Shown here one piece after another: positions 1 through 38,277 of a stretch of 38,277 nt of DNA (position 1 is the first letter of the stretch; every line of letters starts with the position of its first letter). The position numbers were made by a program, and so were the translations under genes. Source of the stretch: a virus; the UHGV virus genome UHGV-0391791; one strand, written 5' to 3'. The notes under the pieces were generated by a model that had not been told where the DNA came from, ran no database searches, and saw only the letters and a program-made list of their open reading frames with translations.

Positions 1-1262
1 ACCTTCGCAGACAGATACATGGTTCCAAGATCAGAGAACGATGACAGCAACGCGGATCCGAGTCTGCTGGCAACCAGCCAGTTGCGGATATTGTCAGACC
101 ATCGCGCGATGTGCGGATTCGCTACAGGCTGTGTCTTTCCGGAAATAAAGTTGTACAGATTCTCTGTGTTGTTCGCCAGCCGCTCGACTTTACCGGTTTT
201 ACTCGGGTTAGCTGTTGCCGTTTCTGCCTTCACCTGATCAAGAAGAGAGCGGAAAACATGATCGGGGTTTGGGCCATATGTTTCCACCAGTGCAATATCT
301 TTACTGATACCTTCCAGGTGACCGACCATGATTTCCCATAGAGAGCGATCGCCATAAAGTTGCTGATATTGAAGATAGGAATCTGCATCTTTGAAATGTA
401 TCTGTCGTGATGCATTACCACGGTTAGCACGTGCGCCGGAAATTCGCATTCCGGTATCAGTAAGCTTATTCAACCCACCAGTAGCGATCGTGTTATAAGC
501 CTCTCCAAGAAATGCAGACAACTCGGCATCGTTCATCAGTTGTCCATCGGCTCGGGTATAATATTTGCGATCCAGCTTACCTATAACATCGCTAACCCAT
601 TTATCTTTTGATACCGCCCCAACCTTTTCCATAGAATGATGTTGAGGGATCCCCCAGTTTTCGAGATAGCCAATGTCCCCACCAGCATCATTAAACCGGC
701 GGCGCAGCAGCTCTGTAACTTCTCTCCACGCCTTAGCACCTTTTCTTGCTTTAGCATTGCCAGTATTTTGCCCCCGCATTTCATATACCAGGTCACGTAC
801 GCCAGCTTCATCTTCAAACAGACCAAAAAAGCGAGGATCAACTGCTTCGAATGCCTCCTGCAATTGACTCAATGCATAATCACGGGTGGCTTTTGTTCTG
901 GATTCAACAGAGAGGAAATTCGATTTACCGTCTGCATTAAAAGCAATAGTACGGTTAAGAGCGCCAAGTTTCCCATCAGCCCCTTGATAGCTATTGATAA
1001 ATTTATCCAATCTCTGACGTGCGGCTATAGTGAGGGCCACACGACGTTTCTTTAATGCCGCTTCTCGCTGTAATTCTTCAGATGCCAATTGTGCTGCACG
1101 ATATAGCCGCTCTGATTCGGAAAGTTGTCTCCACGACATCGGGTCATCACGAGCAATAGAGCGCATATTTCGATAAATGCGGTCTTCAATGTTCTGTATT
1201 TCTCGCGCCGTTAACGTGCGCTGCGCCGCCTGCTGGACCGCTTGTATACATTCCTGTCTCAT
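1..1262 (-). CDS. Internal virion/ejection protein, N-terminal part; ORF starts at ATG 1262..1260 and runs off the left edge with no stop
   Basis: Not in the ORF track because it is edge-truncated. Manual minus-strand translation from 1262 (MRQECIQAVQQAAQRTL...) is open to position 1. In frame with the ORF at the right window end if the sequence is circular. Confidence 0.5.
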   Translation of the reverse strand, partial: MRQECIQAVQQAAQRTLTAREIQNIEDRIYRNMRSIARDDPMSWRQLSESERLYRAAQLASEELQREAALKKRRVALTIAARQRLDKFINSYQGADGKLGALNRTIAFNADGKSNFLSVESRTKATRDYALSQLQEAFEAVDPRFFGLFEDEAGVRDLVYEMRGQNTGNAKARKGAKAWREVTELLRRRFNDAGGDIGYLENWGIPQHHSMEKVGAVSKDKWVSDVIGKLDRKYYTRADGQLMNDAELSAFLGEAYNTIATGGLNKLTDTGMRISGARANRGNASRQIHFKDADSYLQYQQLYGDRSLWEIMVGHLEGISKDIALVETYGPNPDHVFRSLLDQVKAETATANPSKTGKVERLANNTENLYNFISGKTQPVANPHIARWSDNIRNWLVASRLGSALLSSFSDLGTMYLSAK

Positions 1263-14566: not shown

Positions 14567-14773
14567 TTACTGACCAAGCAGCGTTTTACCGCTGGTATTA
14601 GCGGTTGATGTGTCGCCCTGAGAACCGGTAAGCAGCGTAGAACTACGACCAGCAGCAGCGCGACGGCGACGAGTTTCTTCGTCGCGGGCATCAACAACGG
14701 CGGCATCCTGCTCCTGTGGTGCTGCCTGAACTTCTGGTGTTGCAGGCACTGATGGTGAGCTACCCATGCACAT
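14567..14773 (-). CDS. Small Ser/Pro/Ala-rich ORF (68 aa) upstream of portal; uncertain
   Basis: Track ORF; GGAG Shine-Dalgarno upstream; alternative overlapping frame 14554..14793 cannot be excluded. Confidence 0.25.
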   Translation of the reverse strand: MCMGSSPSVPATPEVQAAPQEQDAAVVDARDEETRRRRAAAGRSSTLLTGSQGDTSTANTSGKTLLGQ

Positions 14774-14863: not shown

Positions 14864-14878
14864 TTACCTTTCAGGTAA
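14864..14878. promoter_or_regulatory. Operator-like palindrome TTACCTTTCAGGTAA, with a perfect TTGACA -35 hexamer at 14842..14847
   Basis: Perfect TTACC-N5-GGTAA dyad; identical 15-mer recurs at 34071..34085; intergenic. Confidence 0.55.
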
Positions 14879-17419: not shown

Positions 17420-18012
17420 TGATTACCATCCTGACGTTCTTTGAGTCGCTTCCTGGCTGCTGCTATGCGATCAGCAATTGTCACATTCACATTAACATCC
17501 AGACGTTCTTTGAACGCGTTGACATCAACATGCTTACCAATCAGCTCAAGGTTCTTCACCTTGTCAGGCCATTTAATTTTTTTGAGGATTGTCTCTATCG
17601 AATCCTCGTTCATGTTCATGATGGTCGATGACAGATCAAAGCCACTAAGCGTAGTGCGCCAGATTTTCGGCCACTCACGGATTGGTTTAAGGCTCCCATC
17701 GTCGTTGAGGATATCGATCACGTCCATCTGGTCGATCTCCACCAGGCGCATGAGAACGTAATCAGCACTGACGCGCATTCGTTTGTTGCGCTCCTCCATC
17801 AACTCGGCAATCCGTTTTTGAATGCGTTCATCGCGCATCATGACACTGGCTTTAACTGCCGCTGTATTTGGGGAGAATCCTGCGTTAATCGCTGCCTGAG
17901 TCTGGTTTTCAGGCGTTTTGATGTATGACTGGCAATAAGCCTCCTGCATTGCTGTTAGTGGCTTAAATTGCGTTGATTTGCGTTTATAGGTTTTAGGTTC
18001 AGCAGGCATCAT
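17416..18012 (-). CDS. Terminase small subunit (start placed at MMPAEP..., about 198 aa; track start 18090 judged too far upstream)
   Basis: Track ORF 17416..18090; its first 26 codons span tandem DNA repeats and a terminator hairpin, so the internal Met-Met at 18012 is preferred; overlaps terL start. Confidence 0.6.
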   Translation of the reverse strand: MMPAEPKTYKRKSTQFKPLTAMQEAYCQSYIKTPENQTQAAINAGFSPNTAAVKASVMMRDERIQKRIAELMEERNKRMRVSADYVLMRLVEIDQMDVIDILNDDGSLKPIREWPKIWRTTLSGFDLSSTIMNMNEDSIETILKKIKWPDKVKNLELIGKHVDVNAFKERLDVNVNVTIADRIAAARKRLKERQDGNQ

Positions 18013-18018
18013 AACCAC

Positions 18019-18051
18019 CGTGGTAATAGTTACCGTTGTGGTAATAGTACC
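18019..18051. repeat. Tandem repeat GTGGTAATAGT(T)ACC x2 in the small-terminase leader; contains everted half-sites GGTAA-tag-TTACC
   Basis: Read directly: ccgtGGTAATAGTTACCgttgtGGTAATAGTACCatg. Confidence 0.6.
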
Positions 18052-18081
18052 ATGCAAAATAAAGCCGCCATAGTTGGCGGC
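18052..18081 (-). terminator. Rho-independent terminator on the minus strand just upstream of the small-terminase gene
   Basis: Minus strand GCCGCCA-acta-TGGCGGC followed by CTTTATTTTG. Confidence 0.55.
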
Positions 18082-18121
18082 AGTATTCAAAACCCATCAA
18101 ATTCATCATGCATAATCTACT

Positions 18122-18135
18122 CGTGACATGTCACA
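18122..18135. repeat. 14-bp palindrome CGTGACATGTCACA (copy 2 of 3), overlapping the stop codon of the 18131..18472 gene
   Basis: Exact match to copies at 15857 and 36466. Confidence 0.8.
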
Positions 18136-18472
18136 CTATTAATTTCGTTTCATGCCAGCCTTTAGTCACCCAGCATTGCGAGTCACCATTGCACGGGCAT
18201 GAATTCACAGGAACTCTCTCGCCGCACTTACCGCAACGTTTTCTGCTGATCGATTTTATACGCCCGCGCACGCGTGCATCATCCTGGCGGATCAGTAACG
18301 CTATATACTCACCAAATTCGTAAGGCGCACGCCCGGGGCGACGCGTGGCACAGTTACGCTCCAGCATTTCAATTTCCTGAGCATCAAGCACAATCTCCAG
18401 CTTACGCACACCAGATGCAGCTTGTCTGGCTCTCTGAGCGGCTTTGCGCTCTGCTGCTGATTTAGCCATCAA
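18131..18472 (-). CDS. Hypothetical protein (113 aa) with basic N-terminus and C-terminal Cys cluster (zinc-ribbon-like); last gene before the late operon
   Basis: Track ORF; C-terminus RKRCGKCGERVPVNSCPCNGDSQCW. Confidence 0.45.
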   Translation of the reverse strand: MMAKSAAERKAAQRARQAASGVRKLEIVLDAQEIEMLERNCATRRPGRAPYEFGEYIALLIRQDDARVRGRIKSISRKRCGKCGERVPVNSCPCNGDSQCWVTKGWHETKLIV

Positions 18473-18496
18473 TATTTACCTTTATCGCGAACATAC

Positions 18497-18718: not shown

Positions 18719-18748
18719 ATCTTTTCACCTTTAAGGATAAGTTGCATG

Positions 18749-19345: not shown

Positions 19346-19355
19346 GTGTTACTCC

Positions 19356-20172: not shown

Positions 20173-20705
20173 TGGTTGCCTCCTTTGCGAAGCTGGGCAG
20201 CAAAGTCAACTAACCACTCAGTCATTTCAACCTTCCCTACCAGGTCTGAACCAGGGTGCATACAGCAATCACTCTGCGCCGCTTTGAAATCCTTATACTC
20301 ATATTCTTGGGCCACCAGATTTTTTGCAGCTTCTATAGCAGCATCCACGCCCTGCGCCCGTACTTCAGCCAGGAAAGCGTCGGTGGCTGGGGTGTCAACA
20401 CGGATGCTGTCGCGCAAGATGAAAAATGCATTGAGCATTCCAGTCTCTGGCACTTCATCCTGATGCTTCTCATACGCATCAAGAGCCTTCATCATCTCAT
20501 GTCCGAATGGTTGAGGGTGCGCAGACTTCAGCCCCGCACTCTCCGCTGCCAGCGCATTAGCACGCACCAGTTGCACTTCCAGTTGCGTTGCCAAATCGCT
20601 GAGCAGCTTTGCCACACTACGCATATCAACGGCACCACATTCAGCTTTCAGTTCCGAAGCCATCTCATGCCCGGCGGAAACTAACCCTTTGATATTACTT
20701 TCCAT
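20169..20705 (-). CDS. Hypothetical protein (178 aa)
   Basis: Track ORF in the early leftward operon. Confidence 0.45.
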   Translation of the reverse strand: MESNIKGLVSAGHEMASELKAECGAVDMRSVAKLLSDLATQLEVQLVRANALAAESAGLKSAHPQPFGHEMMKALDAYEKHQDEVPETGMLNAFFILRDSIRVDTPATDAFLAEVRAQGVDAAIEAAKNLVAQEYEYKDFKAAQSDCCMHPGSDLVGKVEMTEWLVDFAAQLRKGGNQ

Positions 20706-20766
20706 CTTTACCCTCGCTTATCCACATAACTTATTGATTACATTGATAACTAAAAAGATCGTCGAT

Positions 20767-21114
20767 TCAGAACTCTTCGATGTTCCAGCCGCCACCTGCT
20801 TTCTTTGGTTTAACCGTTACCCCGATGATTCGGAACGGATACTGATCTGCGGCTACTTTGGTTTTCACCCTGGCGTCGTCGGTCCAGAATCCCCCTTTCA
20901 CTTCGTGCAGTTCCATCTCTCCGGTGGCGAGCATCACAGCGAAATCGGGCGTATAGAACGTGTTGTCAGCTAACCGCAGCTTAATACCCTCGAATCGATA
21001 CCAGGCGATTTCCCCTGCACGTTTACGCTGCTCAAGGTGCTGGCAATACGCAGATTCTGTTTTGTTCATCTGGCCTGTTTTGAGTCGACCAAGAGCCTGT
21101 ATCTGTTTTCTCAT
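20767..21114 (-). CDS. Small putative PD-(D/E)xK-type nuclease (115 aa)
   Basis: Track ORF; motif ...YTPDFAV...ELHEVKG consistent with a D...E-x-K active site; SD GAGGT. Confidence 0.45.
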   Translation of the reverse strand: MRKQIQALGRLKTGQMNKTESAYCQHLEQRKRAGEIAWYRFEGIKLRLADNTFYTPDFAVMLATGEMELHEVKGGFWTDDARVKTKVAADQYPFRIIGVTVKPKKAGGGWNIEEF

Positions 21115-21117
21115 GAT

Positions 21118-21132
21118 TTACCTCTAAGGTAA
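21118..21132. promoter_or_regulatory. Operator-like palindrome TTACCTCTAAGGTAA overlapping the RBS of the 20767..21114 gene
   Basis: Perfect TTACC-N5-GGTAA dyad 4 nt upstream of the start codon. Confidence 0.55.
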
Positions 21133-21179
21133 TTAAAAACCACATAAGACACGAAATCAATAGATTTTAGAATATTTTA

Positions 21180-21194
21180 TTACCCAACAGGTAA
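21180..21194. promoter_or_regulatory. Operator-like palindrome TTACCCAACAGGTAA
   Basis: Perfect dyad; an AT-rich promoter-like stretch lies between it and site 21118..21132. Confidence 0.55.
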
Positions 21195-21204
21195 TTATCA
21201 AGAC

Positions 21205-21228
21205 GTAAAAAAATGCGCTATCGCGCTG
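21205..21228 (-). terminator. Weak terminator after the P-like gene (short GCGC stem plus T7 run on the minus strand)
   Basis: Minus strand GCGC-gata-GCGC followed by ATTTTTTT; stem only 4 bp. Confidence 0.3.
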
Positions 21229-21231
21229 GTA

Positions 21232-22032
21232 TTACTTGATAAATCCTGCCGCCTTTCCCCGCCTGTATTCCTCCATCAGCCACTGCGCCGGTGTTATTCC
21301 CCCAAGGGTGGCGGCGTTAGGCATGCACCCGAAACTTCGCCCTGGTGGATGGTAAACGTCTCTCCCTGTGTCCGGAGGCGTACTCATGGGTTCTGGCTTT
21401 GCCTGTATGCTGATCACCGGATCGGGTATCTGCTGTCCGGAAGCCACCTTTTTCGCCCAATCATCGAGCAGCCTGCGTGCGTGTTTCTCAACCTCAATCT
21501 CGCTAAGCTGGCGCTGATACATTGCGCGGCGGGTATCACATACGACCCAGTACATAACCGGATGTCGCCACGGGAATCTTTCGGGACCACCAGGATATAA
21601 ACTTTTTTCCTTGCTGTACCGGTGAAACTCCGCCATCACATCGTCAATGGTGACGCCAAGAACCATCTTGCTGTCTTTGCACCACTTGATAAATTGCCCT
21701 GGAGACGGCCAGAACGGAGATTCACTGGCGCGGGCGTGGCGCATACCAGCAGAAACCTGTTCACGGGTTCGGATCCCCCCTTCGGCAAACGCAGCAATCC
21801 ACTGCTGTTTTGCAGCAACTTCCTGCTCTGGCGTCTTCAGGTTGGTTACCACTGCCGCCGGAAACAGTTGTTTCAGCTGTTTAAAAAGGGCATCAACAAG
21901 CCTCTCTGCTGACATGTTCACCACATTGTCATTGTTGACGTACTGATGCTCATAACCTGACATGCGAGAAAGGGCTTCTCCGTCACGGTTTTGTATCGCG
22001 GTAAAAACGTTGTTCACAAGAAATCCTCCCAT
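21232..22032 (-). CDS. Replication protein P-like (helicase loader)
   Basis: Track ORF; segment ...QWIAAFAEGGIRTREQVSAGMRHARASESPFWPSPGQFIKWCKD matches recalled lambda P (...QWVLAFRENGITTMEQVNAGMRVARRQNRPFLPSPGQFVAWCRE). Confidence 0.75.
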   Translation of the reverse strand: MGGFLVNNVFTAIQNRDGEALSRMSGYEHQYVNNDNVVNMSAERLVDALFKQLKQLFPAAVVTNLKTPEQEVAAKQQWIAAFAEGGIRTREQVSAGMRHARASESPFWPSPGQFIKWCKDSKMVLGVTIDDVMAEFHRYSKEKSLYPGGPERFPWRHPVMYWVVCDTRRAMYQRQLSEIEVEKHARRLLDDWAKKVASGQQIPDPVISIQAKPEPMSTPPDTGRDVYHPPGRSFGCMPNAATLGGITPAQWLMEEYRRGKAAGFIK

Positions 22033-22829
22033 GCTTCAGGGCTGTTCCAGTGCGGAACGTTGTTATCAGGTAATGTTGATTGCTTCTGTCTGCTAATCTG
22101 CAGCCGCCTTGCCAGCTTCTGCTCCCACTGTGCCTGATGGTATGCCTTACCCTCAGCCATCCAGTAAATTCTGAACTCTGCAAGTTCCTGTGCCGTTGGC
22201 AGACTGTCCAGGTAGATCCCCTGCAATGAGCTTTTCCGAAGAAAGTCATCTGATGGCTGCCATTGTTCATGCATGACAAATTTGCCTAATTGCCCTGGCC
22301 CACCAGGAGGAACAAAGTTATTCATCACGGCGTTGTTTGCGTCGGGGTCATGAGGCACAGAATCCCCGTTTTTTGTCCTGCTCTCCCTCTCTTGGTTAAA
22401 TGACTGGTTATATGACTGGTTCTGGATCCCGTTTTTGGGATCATTCAACATCCCGTTTTTGGGATCATTCAACATCCCGTTTTTGGGTATATTCCCGTTT
22501 TCGGTAACATTACCGTTTTCGGGTTCATTGCCCCCCTCCCGGTTGCCTTTAATGTTCCCGTTTTTGGTTATATTAAGAGAGAAAACCCGCACTCTTTTTG
22601 TCGCTCCCTTTCTCTCTCCGGTATCTGAAATAAGCCCCATTTTCATGAGCGATATAAGCCCGGCCTGCACGGTTTTTTTATTCAGGCAAGTGTCTTTAAC
22701 GAGGCGTTCTATGCTGGGGTAGCAGAGGTTATATTCATCGGCTCTGTCAGCCATCGAGAGCAGTATGAGCTTTAATGATGAGCTACCTGGATCTGTCTCC
22801 CAGGCCCAATCTGTTGCATGTCTGCTCAT
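22014..22829 (-). CDS. Replication initiator O-like protein with origin iterons inside the gene
   Basis: Track ORF; N-terminal HTH-like region, central Asn/Gly-rich peptide repeats encoded by DNA iterons; directly upstream of the P-like gene. Confidence 0.6.
   Translation of the reverse strand: MSRHATDWAWETDPGSSSLKLILLSMADRADEYNLCYPSIERLVKDTCLNKKTVQAGLISLMKMGLISDTGERKGATKRVRVFSLNITKNGNIKGNREGGNEPENGNVTENGNIPKNGMLNDPKNGMLNDPKNGIQNQSYNQSFNQERESRTKNGDSVPHDPDANNAVMNNFVPPGGPGQLGKFVMHEQWQPSDDFLRKSSLQGIYLDSLPTAQELAEFRIYWMAEGKAYHQAQWEQKLARRLQISRQKQSTLPDNNVPHWNSPEAWEDFL
22418..22570. repeat. Putative replication origin: about six iterons with core CCCGTTTT(T/C)GG, flanked by tandem TATGACTGGT repeats
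   Basis: Read directly: atcattcaacatcccgtttttggg repeated twice exactly, with further CCCGTTTTCGG / ACCGTTTTCGGG / CCCGTTTTTGG copies. Confidence 0.55.
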
Positions 22830-22844
22830 GATTAATCTCCGCTA

Positions 22845-23045
22845 TCAGCTTGAATGTTGTGGGGAGGAATTAATCATGATCTGCTTAATCTCAGCCCTGA
22901 TGCGACGGTTTGATTCCATGGTGCACTCAACACAGTGTCCGTTGTAAACCCAACGTTCACTGTCATGTCCGTGCTTACATGGTTTTCCGGTGTAGTAGCG
23001 TTTAAGTCCGCGCTTTGCGGCATCAATACGTGTAATGATTTCCAT
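22845..23045 (-). CDS. Small zinc-ribbon protein (about 66 aa from MEIITRID...), in the cII-equivalent position
   Basis: Track ORF 22845..23108; Cys/His cluster KPCKHGH...GHCVEC; internal start chosen because the upstream residues are hydrophobic and lack an SD. Confidence 0.4.
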   Translation of the reverse strand: MEIITRIDAAKRGLKRYYTGKPCKHGHDSERWVYNGHCVECTMESNRRIRAEIKQIMINSSPQHSS

Positions 23046-23124
23046 GGTAAGCCCTGTTATTAGTATTGGGATTACGGTCATTTTGTGCTGACACAAAAAA
23101 AAGATCAACCAGATTTGGTTTTTT

Positions 23125-23139
23125 ATTACCTTTGAGGTG
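23125..23139. promoter_or_regulatory. Variant operator-like site TTACCTTTGAGGTGC
   Basis: Left half-site perfect, right half GGTGC; same variant right half as site 23494..23508. Confidence 0.3.
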
Positions 23140-23152
23140 CGAATAGATATGA

Positions 23153-23172
23153 AAAGACCGCCGGGTGGCGGT
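23153..23172 (-). terminator. Hairpin between the Cro-like gene and the next leftward gene (tR1-like position), weak T-tract
   Basis: AGACCGCC-gggt-GGCGGTCT; downstream run on the minus strand is only TTT. Confidence 0.3.
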
Positions 23173-23195
23173 CTACAGAGGGTTGTGGCTGGATA

Positions 23196-23426
23196 TCATG
23201 AGTAGAAGAAGTATGCCAGTTCTGCTTTTGAGCGCAGCCATTGTCTTGTTTTACAGGCTTTAAAAAGCCCATTCATCAATACTTTACCTGGCATTTTGCG
23301 CTTACCTGTTAAGTGAGTCTGGATATAGTGACTCGTCGTTCCGGCTTCCTGTGCGAAGGCTTCACGCTCATCCGGAGTAAGTGCAAGCCAGTGCTTTTTG
23401 AAATCGAAATGTCCGTTATCGCTCAT
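23196..23426 (-). CDS. Cro-like small HTH regulator (76 aa)
   Basis: Track ORF; divergent from the repressor gene, pointing toward the O and P genes. Confidence 0.5.
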   Translation of the reverse strand: MSDNGHFDFKKHWLALTPDEREAFAQEAGTTSHYIQTHLTGKRKMPGKVLMNGLFKACKTRQWLRSKAELAYFFYS

Positions 23427-23462
23427 AGCTATTGCCTGATATTTATTTCAGATAATAAATAT

Positions 23463-23477
23463 TCACCCATAAGGTAA
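23463..23477. promoter_or_regulatory. Operator site (variant TCACCCATAAGGTAA) in the spacer of a leftward PR-like promoter
   Basis: Minus strand TTGTTA-17 nt-TATTAT with the dyad inside the spacer. Confidence 0.45.
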
Positions 23478-23493
23478 CAAAAATCAAGGATAG

Positions 23494-23508
23494 TTACCTA
23501 TGGGGTGC
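23494..23508. promoter_or_regulatory. Operator site (variant TTACCTATGGGGTGC)
   Basis: Perfect left half, degenerate right half; lies between the two other sites of the divergent region. Confidence 0.3.
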
Positions 23509-23510
23509 AT

Positions 23511-23525
23511 TTACCTGTTGGGTAA
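23511..23525. promoter_or_regulatory. Operator site TTACCTGTTGGGTAA (perfect) in the repressor/Cro divergent region
   Basis: Perfect TTACC-N5-GGTAA dyad. Confidence 0.6.
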
Positions 23526-23580
23526 TATTGCTTTAAATTGAATCATCTACTGATTCATATACGAGGCGATTTTCCAGAAA

Positions 23581-24165
23581 ATGAAAAGTATCCAGGACGT
23601 CCGCAGGCAAAATCTCAACGACTTGATCGACCGTGAATTCAATGGTGTTCAGACGCGGATGGCAGAAAAACTTGGAACTCAGGCAAATCTGGTAAACCGC
23701 TGGGCTCTTGGCAAGAAGGTTATCGGCGACCAGGTTGCGCGAAAAATTGAAGCTGCCGCCAATAAACCCCGTAACTGGCTTGATATCGATCGCTCGCTTT
23801 CTCAGGAAGGTTTTCAGCCTGTCGGCCCAAGCGACATTGGTCAGCTGGCGGCTCACAACCTGGAACGCTGGATGAGCGAAAGCCGCGACCTTTCAACACA
23901 GGGAAAACTTCACCGCGCATCCGGCGTCGCCCAGGTGACAATCAGCCGCCTGTTAAACAATGAGGTCAGCGTTTCCATTTCCACCCTGGAGAATGTTGCA
24001 TCCGCATTCGGGCGTCACGGCTATGAATTACTGATTCACCCGCACGACCCTGCGACCATCAACTATGACCGCTCGCGCTACGCATTGTTACCCGAAACCG
24101 AGAAAGCAAAGATCGAAAGTTACATTGAATTTGTCATCAACCAGAACGAAAAAAACAAACAATAA
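23581..24165 (+). CDS. Phage repressor (194 aa) with two HTH-like segments and no recognisable LexA/S24-type autocleavage domain
   Basis: Track ORF; HTH-like segments MAEKLGTQANLVNRWALGKK and GVAQVTISRLLNNEVSVSISTLENVASAFG; no Ala-Gly/Ser...Lys peptidase module by eye. Confidence 0.6.
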   Translation: MKSIQDVRRQNLNDLIDREFNGVQTRMAEKLGTQANLVNRWALGKKVIGDQVARKIEAAANKPRNWLDIDRSLSQEGFQPVGPSDIGQLAAHNLERWMSESRDLSTQGKLHRASGVAQVTISRLLNNEVSVSISTLENVASAFGRHGYELLIHPHDPATINYDRSRYALLPETEKAKIESYIEFVINQNEKNKQ

Positions 24166-24186
24166 AATCATATTTTTCAGTAAGTA

Positions 24187-24210
24187 AGCCGCCTTCTGGC
24201 GGCTTTTTTA
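24187..24210 (+). terminator. Rho-independent terminator after the repressor gene
   Basis: AGCCGCC-ttct-GGCGGCT followed by TTTTTTA. Confidence 0.7.
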
Positions 24211-24222
24211 TTGTCTACACAA

Positions 24223-24237
24223 TTACCTTAAGGGTAA
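24223..24237. promoter_or_regulatory. Operator site TTACCTTAAGGGTAA upstream of a rightward PL-like promoter
   Basis: Perfect dyad; promoter TTGACA at 24257..24262. Confidence 0.6.
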
Positions 24238-24256
24238 TTTTTTTAACTCATATCTA

Positions 24257-24285
24257 TTGACACCAAACCAAATACGCATAATCAT
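24257..24285 (+). promoter_or_regulatory. Sigma70-like promoter (TTGACA with weak -10 TAATCA/CATAAT) for the rightward early operon, flanked by two operator dyads
   Basis: Perfect -35 hexamer; -10 candidates at acceptable spacing. Confidence 0.4.
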
Positions 24286-24299
24286 TACCTCAACGGTAA
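24285..24299. promoter_or_regulatory. Operator site TTACCTCAACGGTAA overlapping the -10/+1 of the PL-like promoter
   Basis: Perfect TTACC-N5-GGTAA dyad. Confidence 0.6.
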
Positions 24300-24318
24300 C
24301 AGACCGAGGTAACAAGTT

Positions 24319-24471
24319 ATGCAGTGGAAAATCATCAACGGTTGGTACTGCGTTACTGCATGCGGATTCATGAGCTGGAAGTTCCGCACCTTACAGGAAG
24401 GCATTAAGTGGGCTTTCGTCAGCAAAGAAGCTCGCGATGTGGCCAACGATAACGAGATATGGGAGGGCTGA
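24319..24471 (+). CDS. Small ORF (50 aa), first gene of the rightward early operon
   Basis: Below the track size cutoff; found manually; SD GAGGT upstream; Trp/Cys-containing peptide MQWKIINGWYCVTACGF... Confidence 0.3.
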   Translation: MQWKIINGWYCVTACGFMSWKFRTLQEGIKWAFVSKEARDVANDNEIWEG

Positions 24472-24473
24472 TA

Positions 24474-24773
24474 ATGAACGTTAATCAGCAGAAAAATCTT
24501 CAAAAAATCATGCTGGCATTCGACAAGGACTACCGCCTGTCAGAACAGCTATATGACCGACAAGTCGAACTGATTGAGAGTATCCGGCTTCATCAACTGG
24601 CCTCAACTTTTGACGTTGTAACAGGCAAAGGCGTTCGTCAGGAAGTGCTGGAGGCCGCTAAAGACAGCCCTGAGTTCGAAGAACTAATGGATGCCTACCG
24701 GCGAGAGGCAATGGCAATTATCGCCCGCTGGGATCTGGCGGATCAGCTTGATGGACAGAAGGACGCGGCATGA
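24474..24773 (+). CDS. Hypothetical protein (about 100 aa; start MNVNQQ with SD GGGAGGG)
   Basis: Track ORF 24459..24773; in-frame ATG at 24474 has the better RBS. Confidence 0.5.
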   Translation: MNVNQQKNLQKIMLAFDKDYRLSEQLYDRQVELIESIRLHQLASTFDVVTGKGVRQEVLEAAKDSPEFEELMDAYRREAMAIIARWDLADQLDGQKDAA

Positions 24774-28073: not shown

Positions 28074-29324
28074 TTATTCCCCCGCCATCCACTTCTCAAA
28101 CTTCGACGGGGAGAACGGAATCAGATCCGTATGCTCCCCGTTAATCCAGGAATCAATCATATCGGCCCACTGCTGCAACATGTAGGCGCGCTGTCTGGCG
28201 TATTCCGCTTTGTTATATACGGCGCGCACACCTTTCTGCTCATGTGCCAGAGCCTTTTCAATCCAGTCTGAAGGATAACCAGCCTCATGCAACAACGTAC
28301 TGGCTGTACGGCGCATATCGTGTACGGTGAAGCCCTGAATATGCTCACCATCTTCATTTATTATTTTCACCGTTCTGTCGATCAGAGAGTTCAGCGCGGC
28401 ATTAGATAATGGCTTCCGGAAATTGTAACGACCAGGAACCAGATATTCACTTCCACCAGCGCACATCTGCAACCCAACCAATATATCCTGTGCCTGTTTA
28501 GGCAGGTAAATAACGTGCGCCCGGCTTCCCTTCATGCGGTCTGAAGGAATTGTCCATGTCCATTTTTTAAAATCTATTTCATCCCACGTTGCATTGGTGA
28601 ATTCGCCTTTACGAACCATAGTGATAAGCACCAGCTTTAAAGCCATTTTCATAGTGCCCATAGCACCAATGGCATCCAGCGTGCGGAAGAACAGGCCAAT
28701 TTCTTCTGGTGTCAGTGTTCGCTCTCGTGGTTTAAATATGGCGATAGACGAAGGTTTAATGTCAGCCGCAGGATTAAACAAACCATGACCACGGTCATTG
28801 GCGTGACGGTATACGCTGCTGATGATCTCCCTGGCCTGTACTGCTGTTGCACGGCCACCGCGTTCGACAATCCGGTCACACAAATCACGAACCATCGATG
28901 TGGTAATTTCAGCCATCATTTTGTTGCCAAGAACCGGAAGTATGTCACGGTCGATCACCGCCTGCTTCATTGCGCGGGTACTGTCAGCCAGGATGACGTG
29001 TTTCATATAACTGTCGGTATGTACCGCAAACGTCTCGGCACCACGAATCTTTTTGATACCGTCACGTTTAGCCGCAGCCGGCGACTGGCCTGCTTTAAGC
29101 AGCTTCTTTGCAGCAATCAGTTCTTCTCGCGCTTCTGCCAGGCTGATACCGTCACGCCCATACTGCCCGATTACCAGTGTTTCGCGGCGACCGTTGATAC
29201 GGTAGTCATAGCGAAACGAGACCGTGCCTGACGTAAGCACAGCTACATACAGCCCGTCACGATCGGAGACCTTGTACAGTTTGTCCTGCGGCTTGAGGTT
29301 TTTTAATTTTGTATCGGTAAGCAC
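28074..29324 (-). CDS. int: Tyrosine integrase, P4-type (416 aa)
   Basis: Track ORF; N-terminus MLTDTKLKNLKP...LYVAVLTSGTVSFRYDYR typical of P4-like integrases; C-terminal catalytic region HDMRRT...VRAVYNKAEY. Confidence 0.9.
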   Translation of the reverse strand: MLTDTKLKNLKPQDKLYKVSDRDGLYVAVLTSGTVSFRYDYRINGRRETLVIGQYGRDGISLAEAREELIAAKKLLKAGQSPAAAKRDGIKKIRGAETFAVHTDSYMKHVILADSTRAMKQAVIDRDILPVLGNKMMAEITTSMVRDLCDRIVERGGRATAVQAREIISSVYRHANDRGHGLFNPAADIKPSSIAIFKPRERTLTPEEIGLFFRTLDAIGAMGTMKMALKLVLITMVRKGEFTNATWDEIDFKKWTWTIPSDRMKGSRAHVIYLPKQAQDILVGLQMCAGGSEYLVPGRYNFRKPLSNAALNSLIDRTVKIINEDGEHIQGFTVHDMRRTASTLLHEAGYPSDWIEKALAHEQKGVRAVYNKAEYARQRAYMLQQWADMIDSWINGEHTDLIPFSPSKFEKWMAGE

Positions 29325-29339
29325 AATTCACCCGTATAG

Positions 29340-29620
29340 AAACCATTTTCATGACGGTATGAGAGTATACCTTTAAGGTAATACCGTCACCTGTACCGCC
29401 GAAAAATATGGTGTAGAGTGAATAGAAATGAATACATAAAAACAAAAACCCTCTGCAAAAACAGAGGGTTGAGTTGGCATCTGAATAGGAATGATTTGCT
29501 ATGAGTTAGCTGTTAATCATTCCCACTCAATTATTTACGATACACATAAACAATTGACTGATAACAACTTTCTTCCAAATGATTTTCACCGTACCGTTTT
29601 ATATACCGTCACCGGAAATC
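29340..29620. other. Candidate attP: arm-type repeats TACCGTCACC (29382, 29604; inverted copy 29352; partial 29587) flanking a 9-bp inverted repeat GGAATGATT/AATCATTCC (29488..29523)
   Basis: Repeats read directly from the sequence; location adjacent to the integrase start. Confidence 0.35.
29438..29468 (-). terminator. Rho-independent terminator ending the leftward tailspike-lysis operon before the integrase
   Basis: Minus strand CCCTCTG-loop-CAGAGGG followed by TTTTTGTTTTT. Confidence 0.6.
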
Positions 29621-34070: not shown

Positions 34071-34085
34071 TTACCTTTCAGGTAA
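34071..34085. promoter_or_regulatory. Operator site TTACCTTTCAGGTAA (identical to 14864..14878) in the tailspike / antirepressor divergent region
   Basis: Perfect dyad. Confidence 0.55.
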
Positions 34086-34122: not shown

Positions 34123-34142
34123 TACTGTATAAATATACAGTT
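34123..34142. promoter_or_regulatory. LexA (SOS) box TACTGTATAAATATACAGTT
   Basis: CTGT-N8-ACAG with AT-rich spacer, close match to the E. coli consensus TACTGTATATATATACAGTA; about 20 bp upstream of the first antirepressor-module ORF. Confidence 0.65.
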
Positions 34143-34162
34143 ATTGCATGGAGAAGATTAAG

Positions 34163-34420
34163 ATGCAGCAGTATCACTATCCACTGGAAGAGGGATTTAC
34201 CGAAAGGATTCACACGCCGGGAGGCGTCAGGTCACTGGTGGAGGGATCGCACTTGATGAAATTACTCCGGGATCTCGATAAGGATGGATTTAATGTCGAT
34301 GGCCCACTTGCCGAACTGACTGCACTGATTAACTACGTCACCAGCTCACAGATGTCTATGCAGGATCTGCAAACACATCTCGACTATTGTGCCGAACAAT
34401 TACGAAAACAAACCAGATAA
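34163..34420 (+). CDS. Small protein homologous to the C-terminal domain of the downstream antirepressor (about 85 aa from MQQYHYP); candidate SOS-induced antirepressor
   Basis: In-frame part of track ORF 34148..34420; SD GGAGAAG; IHTPGGVRSLVEGSHLMKLLRDLDKDGFNVDGPLAELTALINY aligns with [43 protein letters not shown] of 34738..35394. Confidence 0.5.
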   Translation: MQQYHYPLEEGFTERIHTPGGVRSLVEGSHLMKLLRDLDKDGFNVDGPLAELTALINYVTSSQMSMQDLQTHLDYCAEQLRKQTR

Positions 34421-34451: not shown

Positions 34452-34466
34452 TTACCTTTGCGGTAA
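34452..34466. promoter_or_regulatory. Operator site TTACCTTTGCGGTAA in the loop of an inverted repeat GGAGTGC/GCACTCC (34439..34482)
   Basis: Perfect dyad; flanking 7-bp inverted repeat read directly. Confidence 0.5.
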
Positions 34467-34557
34467 ATTTACATCGCACTCCTCTTGTGCCATAGTAATC
34501 GGGCACTGGCAAAATCCAGTGCCGGGATTGGTCTCCCGGATTACTAAGTGGCGCATA

Positions 34558-34579
34558 CCACGCCAGACGTGGTTTTTTT
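34558..34579 (+). terminator. Terminator-like hairpin plus T7 run inside the leader between the two antirepressor-module genes
   Basis: CCACG-ccaga-CGTGG followed by TTTTTTT; preceded by overlapping alternative hairpins at 34501..34538. Confidence 0.45.
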
Positions 34580-34737
34580 ATGCGTATAGCACAGTCATGC
34601 CAGAATTATGGTGGGCTGAATGGGGGTCCGAAAGGACGCCGGTACCACTTAGGCCGGTAAGACCAACTCCGTTCAGTTCACCACCATCTGATTGGTCTCA
34701 GCGGTGGTGATGTAATTCGCTAAGTGGAGACGCCATC

Positions 34738-35394
34738 ATGAACGCTCAACTCATCCCCGTATTCAACGGCACTATATCTAACGAAACAGCCCTACTTTGT
34801 AATGCCCGCGATCTGCACGCTTTTTTAGGTGTTAAAAAGGTGTTTGCAGCATGGATTACAAATCGCATATCAGAATACGAATTCATTGAAAATCAAGACT
34901 ATATTTTGCTTTCCAATTTGGGAAAGCAAACATCTGGTAGAGGCGGCCACAACCGCAAAGAGTACCACCTCACCCTTGATACAGCCAAAGAGCTGGCGAT
35001 GGTCGAGCGTAACGAAAAAGGTCGCCAGGTGCGACGCTACTTCATTGAATGCGAGAAACGTTTAAGACAACAAGAAACAAAAGTGGAGAAGGTCTTGTCA
35101 GGCTTCATGCCCGCCATTATGGAGGCGATCAAGCTGGAAGACAAAAAAGAATACAGTGCCCCACTGAAGCCCGGCTACCGCAGCCTGATTCACTCGCCGT
35201 CTGGTGTTCTCGGCCTGACGGAGAACTCACTGCTGATGAATCTGCTGAACCAGTTACAGGACGACGGGCACGACGTATCGGGCGCGGCGGCGGAGCTGAC
35301 CACCATGTTCTGCTACATCGTTGGTGTGAGCAAATGCCTGCGTGATATCCAGACGCACGCGGAGTACATCAACGACAAGGCAGGGTTCTTCTGA
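34738..35394 (+). CDS. Antirepressor (218 aa), AntA/AntB-type N-terminal domain plus C-terminal domain shared with 34163..34420
   Basis: Track ORF; N-terminal segment ...[30 protein letters not shown]...[42 protein letters not shown] recalled as antirepressor-type; SD GGAGA. Confidence 0.65.
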
Positions 35395-35466: not shown

Positions 35467-35481
35467 TTACCTCAAGGGTAA
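35467..35481. promoter_or_regulatory. Operator site TTACCTCAAGGGTAA upstream of the 35541 gene
   Basis: Perfect dyad about 60 bp upstream of the start codon. Confidence 0.55.
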
Positions 35482-35540: not shown

Positions 35541-36173
35541 ATGAGAACAAATACAACAAGAAAAGCGATGCCATACATTATCCCAGAAGCAGATTTCGAT
35601 AGAAAACTGAACATGTCTGAGAAGAACACTAGTCACACCGAAAGCTACTTAGCGAAAGGTGTGGTTGATTTCGTTCTTCCGGGATTCACAACACCTTATG
35701 GTTATCGCCTTGTAAAATCTTGTAATGGCGATCATTACAGAATGATTACTACCAGCGATACTCCAGAAACGGTGTATGCGGTTAAGTTAATCTTTCGGGA
35801 AGATATCGTCGAAGCCAAAAGAACATGTACGCAGATCATGGTATGGCGTACGCCTAATGTTATTCATGACCGTGCTGTTCATGGTTTGCCTCAGATTTTT
35901 TTTCAGTTCTTCCTAGAGCAATATGCGATCGTTGTATCTGATGAGCAACAAACAATCGATGGGAGAAGATTCTGGGAAAGAATGATTTCTTGGGCTATAA
36001 ACACCCCAGGATATAATGTATACGTTTCAGATGGCTCTGAAGAAGATAGACCTCTTAGCTTCATGACATCATGGGATGATTTCTATAGCCAGTGGGCTGA
36101 TTTCTGTTGGGGCAGTGATAAAGATGTGCATACCCACAGACTACTGGTTATAAGCAAAGATAAACTGCATTAA
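35541..36173 (+). CDS. Orphan hypothetical protein (210 aa), moron with its own operator and terminator
   Basis: Track ORF; strong SD GGAGGA 5 nt upstream; no motif recognised; surrounding DNA is AT-rich by eye. Confidence 0.5.
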   Translation: MRTNTTRKAMPYIIPEADFDRKLNMSEKNTSHTESYLAKGVVDFVLPGFTTPYGYRLVKSCNGDHYRMITTSDTPETVYAVKLIFREDIVEAKRTCTQIMVWRTPNVIHDRAVHGLPQIFFQFFLEQYAIVVSDEQQTIDGRRFWERMISWAINTPGYNVYVSDGSEEDRPLSFMTSWDDFYSQWADFCWGSDKDVHTHRLLVISKDKLH

Positions 36174-36892: not shown

Positions 36893-37081
36893 TTATTTTA
36901 TTATTCTTCCGAACAATACAATTCCGAATACTACAAAGCCGAACCATGCCGCTGCACGCAACAGAGATTCCAATTGAAACCCATTTTTATCAAAATGTAT
37001 GAATAGCATAAAAACGCTGCACATATTAGTACAATAAAAGTTATTTGAACCATCATATCTCCTTTTATTGCGGAGTGACAT
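36893..37081 (-). CDS. Small ORF (62 aa) with hydrophobic C-terminus; uncertain
   Basis: Track ORF; start overlaps the stop of the upstream large gene; AT-rich. Confidence 0.25.
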   Translation of the reverse strand: MSLRNKRRYDGSNNFYCTNMCSVFMLFIHFDKNGFQLESLLRAAAWFGFVVFGIVLFGRIIK

Positions 37082-38277
37082 CCTGTGGTCGCCACCAGTA
37101 TGTCTGGTTAAACTCTTTCTTCGAACGTTGCTCCATTTTACGCAAATAGCCTGGTGAAAAATACTCCTGCATCTGGTTAAAGATCATGTGATCGAGAGCC
37201 GCCTTCAAGTACCAGAGATTCGCACCAGGCATCAAACCTTTCCCCAGCTTCACCAGATCACCACCAGTCTGCTCACTCTTCCCTTCCACAGCATTTAACG
37301 GTATGCCCTGAGCAATCTTCACTACGTCATCAACCAGACCAGCTACCGGGCCAAGCATCGACGCCAGCGCGCCGCTTCCGTACCTAGTGTGATCTGACAA
37401 TAAAAAGTCACCGTAAAGGCCAAGACCACCACCTTTCAGTAGAGCACCAAGCCAAAATTTAGCAGCATCTTCTCCTGTCATCTCGCGAGGATTACGACCA
37501 GACGCAAGGTCGTTAAGTTGCTGCGACAAAGCGCCAAGAATGGTCGTACTGGCAATAAACGTCGCAATATATGCCGCACGCCCACCAGCAGACGGCATAC
37601 CCATAGCGCGTGACCAGTGACGCATAACCACCGAGATAGGGAACGATTTAAACAGGAAAACACTTCTCGTTAATTCACCTTTCCATGTTCCACGCTGAAT
37701 ACCAGAACCGGTTATCAGTTGCTCACGTGCTCCCGGTGTAATAACAGCCATATCAACTTCTTCAGTTACGGCACCGAGCAGTTTACGCATTGCCTCAAAT
37801 TTCACGCGTTCAGGCTCACCAAGATGTTTAACTGCTGAATCAGGGATACGCATAATGCTTTCCGGTGTCAGCATCGTATTATTGCCGTTCCCCCAGTCCT
37901 CCTGTTGCGCCAGCTTCCATACGCTCCAGTCTGTGTCAGTAATCCCTTTGCTTTTCAGGATACGAAAATCAGAATCATCGAGGCTACGAAGGTCTGGTGT
38001 CCGTGACACTACTTCTCCCAAGCTTCCCATCATGGTTACGCCATAGGCGCGCTTGTGCGCATCTGACCATGCTGTAAGCCCACTGGCACGCATTACCGCC
38101 GTTGCAGCCCAACGAGACACAGACGGCCCCATATTATCCATCGCCCAGCGGTTAACGCTGCCAAGTAGAGATTCCATCGCCAGACCAGCGCGGCGCGCCC
38201 GCGCAAGTTCTGTACGGTTCGTTGGGTCCATAGCTTCAAGCTGGTTGCGGAATAACTGGTTCATTGGAAGGTTGGTA
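37065..38277 (-). CDS. Internal virion/ejection protein, C-terminal part; ORF is open upstream to the right window edge and is in frame with the left-edge ORF 1..1262
   Basis: Track ORF 37065..38264 starts at the first Met, but the four codons upstream (T-N-L-P) are open to the window end. Confidence 0.5.
   Translation of the reverse strand, partial: TNLPMNQLFRNQLEAMDPTNRTELARARRAGLAMESLLGSVNRWAMDNMGPSVSRWAATAVMRASGLTAWSDAHKRAYGVTMMGSLGEVVSRTPDLRSLDDSDFRILKSKGITDTDWSVWKLAQQEDWGNGNNTMLTPESIMRIPDSAVKHLGEPERVKFEAMRKLLGAVTEEVDMAVITPGAREQLITGSGIQRGTWKGELTRSVFLFKSFPISVVMRHWSRAMGMPSAGGRAAYIATFIASTTILGALSQQLNDLASGRNPREMTGEDAAKFWLGALLKGGGLGLYGDFLLSDHTRYGSGALASMLGPVAGLVDDVVKIAQGIPLNAVEGKSEQTGGDLVKLGKGLMPGANLWYLKAALDHMIFNQMQEYFSPGYLRKMEQRSKKEFNQTYWWRPQDVTPQ

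What the first reader, a model, noticed from the sequence alone, without database searches (positions are those of the whole stretch)
23463..23525. Genome-wide operator regulon: ATTACC-N5-GGTAAT dyad at 13 intergenic sites
A 15-17 bp palindrome TTACC-N5-GGTAA occurs as a perfect dyad at 14864, 21118, 21180, 23511, 24223, 24285, 34071, 34452 and 35467, with variant copies at 23125, 23463, 23494 and 29367. All are intergenic and most overlap or flank promoter-like hexamers: three in the Cro/repressor divergent region, two flanking a perfect TTGACA promoter for the rightward early operon, two flanking an AT-rich promoter region upstream of the nuclease-like gene. Others sit in front of the tRNA-Arg region, the antirepressor operon, an orphan moron and the integrase. 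This looks like a single repressor controlling many dispersed promoters (P1 C1 or stoperator style) rather than a lambda-type OL/OR pair. Two exact 15-mers (14864 and 34071) are identical. Two variants share the same degenerate right half GGTGC, suggesting a graded-affinity class.
Basis: seen in the sequence. Interest (0 to 1): 0.75.

Follow-up and report, generated by a model that had tools for sequence, protein, structure and literature searches.

The report
Phage repressor operator sites, genome-wide
The repeated TTACC-N5-GGTAA palindrome is real and marks the binding sites of this epsilon15/phiV10-type phage's lysogeny repressor in front of nearly every operon. The same sites are already annotated in phage epsilon15 and the repressor family is already solved structurally, so this is a correct rediscovery.

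Summary
TTACC-N5-GGTAA occurs 10 times as a perfect dyad (0.03 expected), and all 10 lie in the 7.8% of the window that is non-coding. Five degenerate copies sit at conserved positions.

The window is a complete, circularly permuted genome of a phiV10-like Uetakevirus. Seven related phages and prophages of Escherichia, Salmonella, Enterobacter and Serratia carry the same dyad at matching positions and spacings. Half-sites never vary; spacers do.

The epsilon15 GenBank and RefSeq records already mark seven of these sites as repressor-binding sites. The protein at 23581..24165 is a full-length homologue of the SPC32H repressor Rep (PDB 5D50). The window also encodes the small antirepressor Ant behind a perfect LexA box.

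Best explanation: these are Rep operators that occlude the early, replication, packaging, head, tail-fibre and accessory promoters, and an SOS-induced Ant releases them. Direct binding was not tested here.

The P1 and stoperator comparisons are functional analogies only, and a lambda-like OR/OL core is still present.

Novelty: already known. The one open point is whether dyad pairs exactly 62 bp apart anchor small repression loops held by tetrameric Rep.

The parts
14864..14878 (.). Perfect dyad TTACCTTTCAGGTAA, 91 bp upstream of the first gene (14567..14773, minus strand) of the virion structural operon.
   Evidence: Orthologous to the epsilon15 site 2931-2947, annotated 'repressor'.
18012..18026 (.). 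One-mismatch dyad TAACCACCGTGGTAA abutting the likely true start codon of the small terminase gene (18012 or 18009, minus strand).
   Evidence: The same 18-bp pair sits before the small terminase gene in phiV10, epsilon15, Tyrion, L007 and L008.
18030..18044 (.). It lies between the terminator at 18064-18081 and the small terminase gene.
   Evidence: Orthologous to the epsilon15 site 12-27, annotated 'repressor'.
21118..21132 (.). Perfect dyad overlapping the ribosome-binding site (GAGG) of the DUF1064 gene 20767..21114 (minus strand). It lies 62 bp from its partner at 21180.
21180..21194 (.). Perfect dyad filling the 16-bp spacer of the minus-strand promoter-like site TTGATA-16-TAAAAT (21201..21174).
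   Evidence: Orthologous to the epsilon15 site 35906-35922, annotated 'repressor'.
23126..23140 (.). Degenerate dyad TTACCTTTGAGGTGC between the terminator of the cro-like gene (23155-23174) and the replication-gene operon.
   Evidence: A weak site is conserved at this position in all five aligned genomes.
23463..23477 (.). One-mismatch dyad in the spacer and -35 region of the promoter-like site for the cro-like gene (TTGTTA-17-TATTAT, 23480..23452, minus strand).
23494..23508 (.). Two-mismatch dyad (GGTGC half), the middle site of the rep/cro divergent region.
   Evidence: This position holds a perfect dyad in epsilon15 and SPC32H.
23511..23525 (.). Perfect dyad, the rep-proximal site of the divergent region.
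23581..24165 (+). Repressor Rep, 194 aa: N-terminal helix-turn-helix DNA-binding domain, middle dimerisation domain, C-terminal tetramerisation and Ant-binding domain. It has no S24 peptidase domain.
   Evidence: PDB 5D50_A, E = 4e-42, full length.. It is identical to phiV10 gp40, which the ZX5 paper says has the same sequence as ZX5 ORF21; overexpressing ORF21 blocks lytic growth.
23196..23426 (-). Cro-like 76-aa helix-turn-helix protein, divergent from rep. It may share the same sites.
   Evidence: phrog_35, transcriptional repressor, 5.6e-13. (helix-turn-helix invariant across the genus).
24223..24237 (.). Perfect dyad upstream of the -35 hexamer of the early promoter beside rep. It lies 62 bp from its partner at 24285.
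   Evidence: The 62-bp pair is present in 7 of 8 genomes.
24257..24285 (+). Promoter-like site TTGACA-17-AATCAT driving 24319.. (RecE/RecT operon). The TTGACA hexamer is invariant in all five aligned genomes.
24285..24299 (.). Perfect dyad starting at the last base of the -10 hexamer and covering the start-site region.
29367..29381 (.). One-mismatch dyad ATACCTTTAAGGTAA, 43 bp upstream of the integrase gene (28074..29324, minus strand). The ATACC half is the same in every genome examined.
34071..34085 (.). Perfect dyad in the divergent region between the tail-fibre gene (minus strand) and ant (plus strand).
   Evidence: Orthologous to the epsilon15 site 19895-19911, annotated 'repressor'.
34125..34140 (.). 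Perfect LexA box CTGTATAAATATACAG, immediately upstream of ant.
   Evidence: Conserved in all five genomes.
34148..34420 (+). Small antirepressor Ant.
   Evidence: PDB 5D50_E, 'Anti-repressor protein', E = 1.7e-47.
34452..34466 (.). Perfect dyad lying between two promoter-like sites, TTGAAA-17-TATATT (34424-34452) and TTTACA-17-CATAGT (34468-34496). It heads the isrK-like / C4 RNA / AntA module.
34503..35394 (+). Second antirepressor module: isrK-like sRNA (34503-34579), C4 antisense RNA (34604-34688) and an AntA-family gene (34738..35394).
   Evidence: Rfam 67.7 and 61.2 bits, both above the gathering scores. (Pfam AntA, 4.2e-26).
35467..35481 (.). Perfect dyad 74 bp upstream of 35541..36173 (210 aa, function unknown, phrog_1349).

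Best explanation
The dyads are the operators of the phage's lysogeny repressor Rep (23581..24165).

How it works:
1. Rep belongs to the epsilon15/SPC32H family. It has an N-terminal helix-turn-helix DNA-binding domain, a middle dimerisation domain and a C-terminal tetramerisation domain.
2. Two N-terminal domains read the two TTACC half-sites. Their centres are 10 bp apart, one helical turn, so both lie on the same face of the DNA.
3. About 15 sites in 10 intergenic regions lie in promoter spacers, over the -10/+1 region, next to -35 hexamers or over ribosome-binding sites. Bound Rep would therefore block RNA polymerase directly.
4. The operons affected are the cro-like/replication operon, the RecET early operon, the DUF1064 operon, the terminase operon, the virion structural operon, the tail-fibre/ant region, integrase, a second antirepressor module and an accessory gene.
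5. Degenerate copies (GCACC, TCACC and ATACC halves) are probably lower-affinity sites.
6. Induction does not use repressor self-cleavage. DNA damage removes LexA from the box in front of ant. Ant then binds the Rep C-terminal domain and strips Rep from all sites at once.

What is shown here: the sites, their enrichment and conservation, their overlap with promoter-like sites, the Rep and Ant homologies, and the LexA box.

What comes from the literature: Rep is a tetramer that binds palindromic DNA, and Ant disassembles it.

What is inferred: Rep occupies each individual site, affinities are graded, and paired sites bind cooperatively.
For: - Enrichment and exclusive intergenic location.
- Dyads coincide with the best promoter-like sites. 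Both 10-of-12 matches in 14500-24500 abut or enclose a dyad, as does one of the two 10-of-12 matches in 29200-37200.
- Orthologous sites with invariant half-sites, free spacers and conserved spacings occur in phiV10, epsilon15, SPC32H and Tyrion, and in three prophages carrying 54-59%-identical Reps.
- The epsilon15 depositors annotated seven of these sites as repressor-binding.
- The window protein matches SPC32H Rep over its full length. Its recognition helix NLVNRW is invariant between Reps only 43% identical, which matches the invariant half-site.
- The Ant homologue and the perfect LexA box are present.
- The literature describes Rep as a tetramer that binds palindromic sites through pairs of N-terminal domains and is disassembled by Ant (PMC9638917, PMC9986798).
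- Overexpressing ZX5 ORF21, reported there to have the same sequence as phiV10 gp40 (itself identical to the window Rep), abolished free phage and cut endolysin and holin transcripts by more than 99.9% (PMC9782041).
Against: - No binding experiment could be run.
- The primary papers that may show footprints were not held: Kropinski 2007, Kim and Ryu 2013, Kim et al. 2016.
- The epsilon15 features are depositor annotation. The records give no supporting experiment.
- The half-site never varies in any relative found, so covariation between repressor and operator could not be used. The cro-like protein also has an invariant helix-turn-helix, so sequence alone cannot say which protein binds.
- A Rep site beside ant is awkward if Rep represses the very gene needed to inactivate it.
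Confidence: 0.85

Rival explanations
1. The dyads are bound mainly by another phage regulator, not Rep. Candidates are the cro-like 76-aa protein (23196..23426) or the regulator encoded at 18131..18469. Alternatively Rep uses only the sites next to its own gene.
For: The cro-like protein is 76-100% conserved and has an invariant helix-turn-helix. It matches a repressor PHROG family. In lambda-type switches Cro and CI share operators. No covariation could tie the dyad specifically to Rep.
Against: The depositors assign the sites to the repressor. Rep is described as binding palindromic DNA. Sites in front of late, integrase and accessory genes make more sense for a maintenance repressor than for a Cro.
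Confidence: 0.08
2. The dyad is part of a phage-specific promoter or activator-binding element, a positive control site rather than an operator.
For: It lies next to promoter-like hexamers. A second conserved motif, CATATRTGGTT-N5-GGTAAT, which includes one half-site, precedes the head and tail-fibre genes; before the DUF1064 gene CTTATGTGGTT is followed instead by the full dyad at 21118.
Against: The dyad's position relative to the -35 and -10 hexamers differs from site to site: in the spacer, at +1, at about -62, at about +40 over a ribosome-binding site, and upstream of -35. That does not fit a fixed promoter element.
Confidence: 0.04
3. The dyads act as RNA hairpins (processing or termination signals), or are recombination, packaging or host-factor sites.
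For: They can form 5-8 bp hairpins of -4 to -6 kcal/mol. Some lie just after terminators.
Against: - The hairpins are weak.
- The stem sequence is invariant, with no compensatory changes in about 100 copies across eight genomes. That indicates sequence readout, not structure.
- Several copies lie in promoter spacers upstream of any transcript.
- Genuine G+C-rich terminators are separate elements.
Confidence: 0.03

Closest known systems
Repressor-binding sites of Salmonella phage epsilon15 (GenBank AY150271.2 / NC_004775.2) and the Rep-Ant-LexA switch of Salmonella phage SPC32H (PDB 5D50, 5D4Z)
   Same: The 15-17 bp motif (A)TTACC-N5-GGTAA(T) is the same. Sites sit at the same genomic positions: before the small terminase gene, before the head operon, between ant and the tail-fibre gene, on both sides of rep, and after the replication genes. 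Spacings match (62, 18, 17/30 or 48 bp). The repressor fold family, the small Ant and the LexA box in front of ant are all shared.
   Different: Rep here is only 43% identical to the epsilon15 and SPC32H Reps. The middle site of the divergent region is degenerate here but perfect there. The window lacks the site before the lysis cassette and adds sites before an isrK/C4/AntA module and an unknown gene. The epsilon15 record annotates only 7 of its roughly 15 sites and none of the three between rep and the cro-like gene.
Phage P1/P7 C1 repressor with dispersed operators, and the immI module (Op51-c4-icd-ant). The P1 details are from established knowledge, not checked here.
   Same: One repressor controls many unlinked operons. 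An operator heads a C4 antisense RNA plus antirepressor module.
   Different: P1 operators are asymmetric 17-mers read by a monomeric C1 of an unrelated family. Here the sites are symmetric dyads and the repressor is described in the literature as a tetrameric helix-turn-helix protein.
Mycobacteriophage L5/Bxb1 stoperators (from established knowledge; PMC1934351 notes multiple asymmetric operators)
   Same: Many repressor sites are scattered through short intergenic regions of the whole genome.
   Different: Stoperators are asymmetric 13-mers, depend on orientation, and block elongation inside transcription units. The sites here are palindromic and mostly overlap promoters.
Lambda CI with OR/OL
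   Same: The repressor gene is flanked by a three-site region shared with a divergent cro-like gene and a multi-site region over the opposite early promoter.
   Different: Rep has no S24 self-cleavage domain. Induction uses a LexA-controlled antirepressor. About ten further sites lie outside the immunity region.
Rco of Bacillus plasmid pLS20 (TetDloop tetramer that loops DNA between operators 75 bp apart; PMC9986798)
   Same: An N-terminal helix-turn-helix plus a C-terminal p53-like tetramerisation domain was reported for SPC32H Rep. Paired operator clusters lie 62-76 bp apart around a promoter.
   Different: Rco reads direct repeats and needs several tetramers. Looping by Rep has not been shown.

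Membership tests
Uetakevirus (epsilon15/SPC32H-type) Rep-Ant immunity system | Repressor homologous over its full length to SPC32H Rep (DNA-binding, dimerisation and tetramerisation domains) | tested here: met
   PDB 5D50_A, E = 4e-42, residues 1-190 aligned to 2-197; 43% identity, recognition helix NLVNRW invariant.
Uetakevirus (epsilon15/SPC32H-type) Rep-Ant immunity system | Small antirepressor Ant encoded divergently from the tail-fibre gene | tested here: met
   the product of 34148..34420 matches PDB 5D50_E, 'Anti-repressor protein', E = 1.7e-47.
Uetakevirus (epsilon15/SPC32H-type) Rep-Ant immunity system | LexA box at the ant promoter | tested here: met
   CTGTATAAATATACAG at 34125-34140, 7 nt before the ATG. 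Conserved in five genomes.
Uetakevirus (epsilon15/SPC32H-type) Rep-Ant immunity system | ATTACC-N5-GGTAAT sites at positions orthologous to the annotated epsilon15 repressor sites | tested here: met
Uetakevirus (epsilon15/SPC32H-type) Rep-Ant immunity system | Rep physically binds the dyads and Ant releases it | not testable with these tools
   Known only from secondary descriptions (PMC9638917, PMC9986798). The primary papers were not held.
Lambda CI / LexA-like self-cleaving repressors | C-terminal S24 peptidase domain | tested here: not met
   only helix-turn-helix families hit, and no Peptidase_S24.
P1 C1-type dispersed operator system | Asymmetric 17-bp operator read by a C1-family monomer | tested here: not met
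   The sites are perfect palindromes. The repressor's best match is SPC32H Rep. P1 properties are from established knowledge.
P1 C1-type dispersed operator system | Operator-controlled c4 antisense RNA upstream of an ant gene (immI) | tested here: met
   (Rfam C4, 61.2 bits against a gathering score of 45). (AntA). (dyad 34452 at the promoter-like sites).
Mycobacteriophage stoperators | Asymmetric site with a fixed orientation relative to transcription, inside transcription units | tested here: not met
   The sites are symmetric and most overlap or flank promoter-like hexamers. Only 21118, and possibly 18012, lie downstream of a promoter.

The most novel reading that the evidence does not exclude
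The dyad pairs spaced exactly 62 bp apart may be the two anchor points of a single Rep tetramer. Its two pairs of DNA-binding domains would clamp the intervening promoter in a very small repression loop of about six helical turns. The pair sits at the early promoter beside rep in 7 of 8 genomes, and at the promoter after the replication genes in 5 of 8. The remaining dispersed sites may allow longer-range bridging. A related point: every relative found uses the identical half-site even when Rep falls to 43-59% identity. Immunity specificity in this group may therefore reside in the Rep-Ant interaction rather than in operator recognition.
Probability: 0.3. Interest if true: 0.45.

Novelty: already known. 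Interest (0 to 1): 0.2.

Why it matters
The result gives a complete operator map of about 15 sites for the phiV10-type phages. Related immunity regions occur in about 10% of complete E. coli genomes (563 of 5426), and these phages are used as O157 reporter and typing phages. The map shows that repression reaches late, integrase and accessory operons directly, and it corrects the small terminase start codon.

It opens no new biology. The motif, the repressor family and the antirepressor switch are already described for epsilon15 and SPC32H. The only open mechanistic question is whether the conserved 62-bp pairs reflect promoter clamping by the tetramer.

Tried and rejected
- **Primary literature.** Kropinski 2007, Perry 2009, Kim and Ryu 2013 and Kim et al. 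2016 could not be read by PMC id, DOI or PubMed id. Full-text searches for the motif string found nothing useful. Nor did searches on Uetakevirus or SPC32H. From memory only, the epsilon15 paper gives a consensus like ATTACCWDWWNGGTAAT; I could not verify this.
- **Covariation test.** I searched for Rep homologues with altered recognition helices and fetched three of their loci. All still use TTACC-N5-GGTAA, so the test says nothing about which protein binds.
- **RNA hairpin reading.** Rejected: the hairpins are weak, the stem sequence is invariant, and some copies lie upstream of transcription starts.
- **Host regulon.** The 16 kb of host flank has no perfect site and three single-mismatch sites inside coding regions. 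I treated these as chance.
- **Site at 33839.** This single-mismatch match inside the tail-fibre gene is not conserved in phiV10. Rejected as a site.
- **Defence function for the gene behind 35467.** No PADLOC or Pfam hit.

Full report
**Observation**

A search for TTACC-N5-GGTAA finds 10 perfect copies in the 38,277-bp window against 0.03 expected from shuffles. With up to two mismatches there are 39 matches against 11 expected. The site written as 23125 starts at 23126. The claimed identity of 14864 and 34071 is correct, and so is the shared GGTGC half of 23126 and 23494.

With a hand-built gene map, only 2971 nt (7.8%) of the window is non-coding, yet all 10 perfect sites lie there. Shuffling the non-coding DNA alone yields 0.003 perfect sites. 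A census of every possible 5-N5-5 dyad shows TTACC/GGTAA as the only enriched one. The central spacer base is always A or T, and the position after TTACC favours T. Lambda has no perfect site, and 16 kb of E. coli chromosome has none.

**What the window is**

The immunity region is 97.7% identical to Escherichia phage phiV10 (genus Uetakevirus). Related DNA occurs in 563 of 5426 complete E. coli genomes. A gene split across the window ends (37065..38277 joined to 1..1262, minus strand) translates without an internal stop and is 99.3% identical to phiV10 gp20. The window is therefore a complete, circularly permuted phage genome.

**Where the sites sit**

- **14864.** Lies 91 bp upstream of the first gene of the virion structural operon.
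- **18030 and 18012.** Lie between a terminator (18064-18081) and an in-frame ATG at 18012/18009. Starting there gives a small terminase gene of 594-597 nt, as in epsilon15, SPC32H and Tyrion. The longer annotated start is therefore probably wrong, and these sites are intergenic.
- **21180.** Fills the spacer of TTGATA-16-TAAAAT. Its partner 62 bp away, 21118, covers the ribosome-binding site of a DUF1064 gene.
- **23126.** Follows the terminator of the cro-like gene and precedes the replication genes.
- **23463, 23494 and 23511.** Occupy the region between the cro-like gene and rep. The first lies in the spacer and -35 region of the cro-side promoter-like site.
- **24223 and 24285.** Lie 62 bp apart and bracket TTGACA-17-AATCAT. 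The second starts at the last base of the -10 hexamer.
- **29367.** Lies 43 bp upstream of the integrase gene.
- **34071.** Lies between the tail-fibre gene and ant.
- **34452.** Lies between two promoter-like sites in front of an isrK-like sRNA, a C4 antisense RNA and an AntA-family gene.
- **35467.** Precedes a 210-aa gene of unknown function.

The only two 10-of-12 promoter matches in 14500-24500 both touch dyads.

**Conservation**

phiV10, epsilon15, SPC32H and Tyrion each carry 8-12 perfect dyads plus near-perfect copies at the same places. Spacings recur:
- 18 bp before the small terminase gene.
- 62 bp at the early promoter beside rep.
- 62 bp after the replication genes.
- 17 and 30 bp, or 48 bp, in the divergent region.
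- An ATACC half before the integrase gene.
- A TCACC half before the lysis cassette.

Alignments of seven orthologous intergenic regions show invariant half-sites with freely varying spacers. Three prophages with Reps 54-59% identical, including one from Serratia, were found through a protein search. They use the same dyad. Two keep the 62-bp pair beside rep, and the Serratia prophage has 75 bp.

**Prior knowledge**

The epsilon15 records AY150271.2 and NC_004775.2 carry seven features labelled 'protein_bind, repressor, lysogeny'. Each is one of these dyads. They do not annotate the three sites between rep and the cro-like gene, nor several others. The phiV10 record has no such features.

**The proteins**

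- The 194-aa product of 23581..24165 matches the SPC32H repressor over its full length (PDB 5D50_A, E = 4e-42). It is 100% identical to phiV10 gp40.
- The literature describes Rep as a tetramer. Pairs of N-terminal domains from different dimers bind palindromic DNA, and the antirepressor Ant disassembles the tetramer (PMC9638917).
- Its C-terminal domain has been likened to the DNA-looping TetDloop of Rco. The same paper states that its repression mechanism 'has not been extensively characterized' (PMC9986798).
- The Pfam HTH_3 hit at residues 106-147 lies in the middle dimerisation domain. The DNA-binding helix-turn-helix is N-terminal.
- The recognition helix NLVNRW is invariant between Reps only 43% identical. 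Variants NLVSRW and NLISRW still accompany TTACC dyads.
- No S24 peptidase domain is present.
- The product of 34148..34420 matches SPC32H Ant (5D50_E, E = 1.7e-47). A perfect LexA box, CTGTATAAATATACAG, sits at 34125-34140.
- Overexpressing ZX5 ORF21, which the ZX5 paper reports as having the same sequence as phiV10 gp40 (and so, as the window Rep), eliminated free phage and cut lysis-gene transcripts by more than 99.9% (PMC9782041).

**Mechanism**

The most likely account, at confidence 0.85, has three steps.
1. Rep occupies about 15 operators and directly occludes the promoters of nearly every transcription unit.
2. The degenerate copies are weaker sites.
3. SOS induction lifts LexA from the ant promoter, and Ant strips Rep from all the sites together.

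The sites, their conservation, the protein homologies and the LexA box are shown here. Tetramer formation and binding to palindromic DNA come from secondary literature. Occupancy of each individual site, graded affinity and cooperative or looped binding of the 62-bp pairs are inferences.

**Rivals**

- The cro-like protein also has an invariant helix-turn-helix and matches a repressor PHROG family. It may share, or less likely own, the sites.
- A promoter-element reading fails because the dyad's position relative to the -35 and -10 hexamers varies between sites.
- An RNA-hairpin reading fails because the stems are weak, their sequence is invariant without compensatory change, and some copies lie upstream of transcription starts.

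**Comparison and verdict**

The system is a member of the epsilon15/SPC32H Rep-Ant family. Every testable defining feature was met. It resembles P1 C1 control in its dispersal, and it even has a C4 RNA plus ant module behind an operator. It is not a C1 or stoperator system, because the sites are symmetric and promoter-proximal. It keeps a lambda-like OR/OL core but lacks self-cleavage.

The finding is a correct and statistically overwhelming observation. Its interpretation is essentially right, but it rediscovers a feature already annotated in the type phage of the genus. Interest is low (0.2). The conserved 62-bp pairing and the uniform half-site across divergent Reps are the only aspects that may go beyond what is published.

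Noticed in passing
window 34424-35394: A P1 immI-like module. Promoter-like sites and dyad 34452 are followed by an isrK-like sRNA (34503-34579, 67.7 bits), a C4 antisense RNA (34604-34688, 61.2 bits) and an AntA-family antirepressor gene (34738..35394). The phage therefore carries two different antirepressor systems: this one, and the LexA-controlled small Ant.
   Followed up: partly
window 18012-18090: The start codon of the small terminase gene used in RefSeq prophage annotation and in phiV10 (675 nt) is probably wrong. A terminator (18064-18081) and two dyads lie inside the extension. Starting at ATG 18012/18009 gives 594-597 nt, as in epsilon15, SPC32H and Tyrion.
   Followed up: yes
window 37065-38277 joined to 1-1262, minus strand: The window is a complete, circularly permuted genome. 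The junction-spanning ORF (825 codons) is intact and 99.3% identical to phiV10 gp20.
   Followed up: yes
window 14812-14822, 21138-21148, 34031-34041 (minus strand): A second conserved motif, CATATRTGGTT-N5-GGTAAT, lies about 40-70 bp upstream of the head-operon and tail-fibre genes; before the DUF1064 gene a one-mismatch copy (CTTATGTGGTT) is followed instead by the full dyad at 21118. It is conserved in all five aligned genomes. Before the tail-fibre gene it includes the palindrome CCATATATGG and a TAGAAT -10-like hexamer. It may be a site for a phage activator, such as the PerC-like protein or the regulator at 18131..18469. Within the window alone the statistics are marginal: 5 matches against 1.3 expected.
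   Followed up: partly
window 22426-22578: An iteron-like array lies inside the DnaT-like replication-initiation gene: six copies of (A/T)TCCCGTTTT(T/C)GG at 18-24 bp spacing, plus one at 45 bp. It is probably the replication origin, analogous to lambda ori inside gene O.
   Followed up: no
window 23436-23451: A LexA-like palindrome, CTGATATTTATTTCAG, lies in the leader of the cro-like gene. It is conserved in phiV10 and Tyrion but not in epsilon15 or SPC32H. It might link the cro-side promoter to the SOS response.
   Followed up: no
window 34148-34420 versus 23581-24165: Ant aligns very closely with SPC32H Ant (E = 1.7e-47, few substitutions over 83 aligned residues), while its target Rep is only 43% identical, including in the C-terminal region that binds Ant. 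This is an unexplained asymmetry in conservation.
   Followed up: no
L005 (Tyrion) 34059-34271; L002 (epsilon15) 33341-33402: The annotated Tyrion CDS gp39 covers the two dyads and the promoter beside rep, and is probably spurious. The epsilon15 record annotates 7 repressor sites but omits the three between rep and gp39, and also those at 24704, 26882 and 35969.
   Followed up: partly
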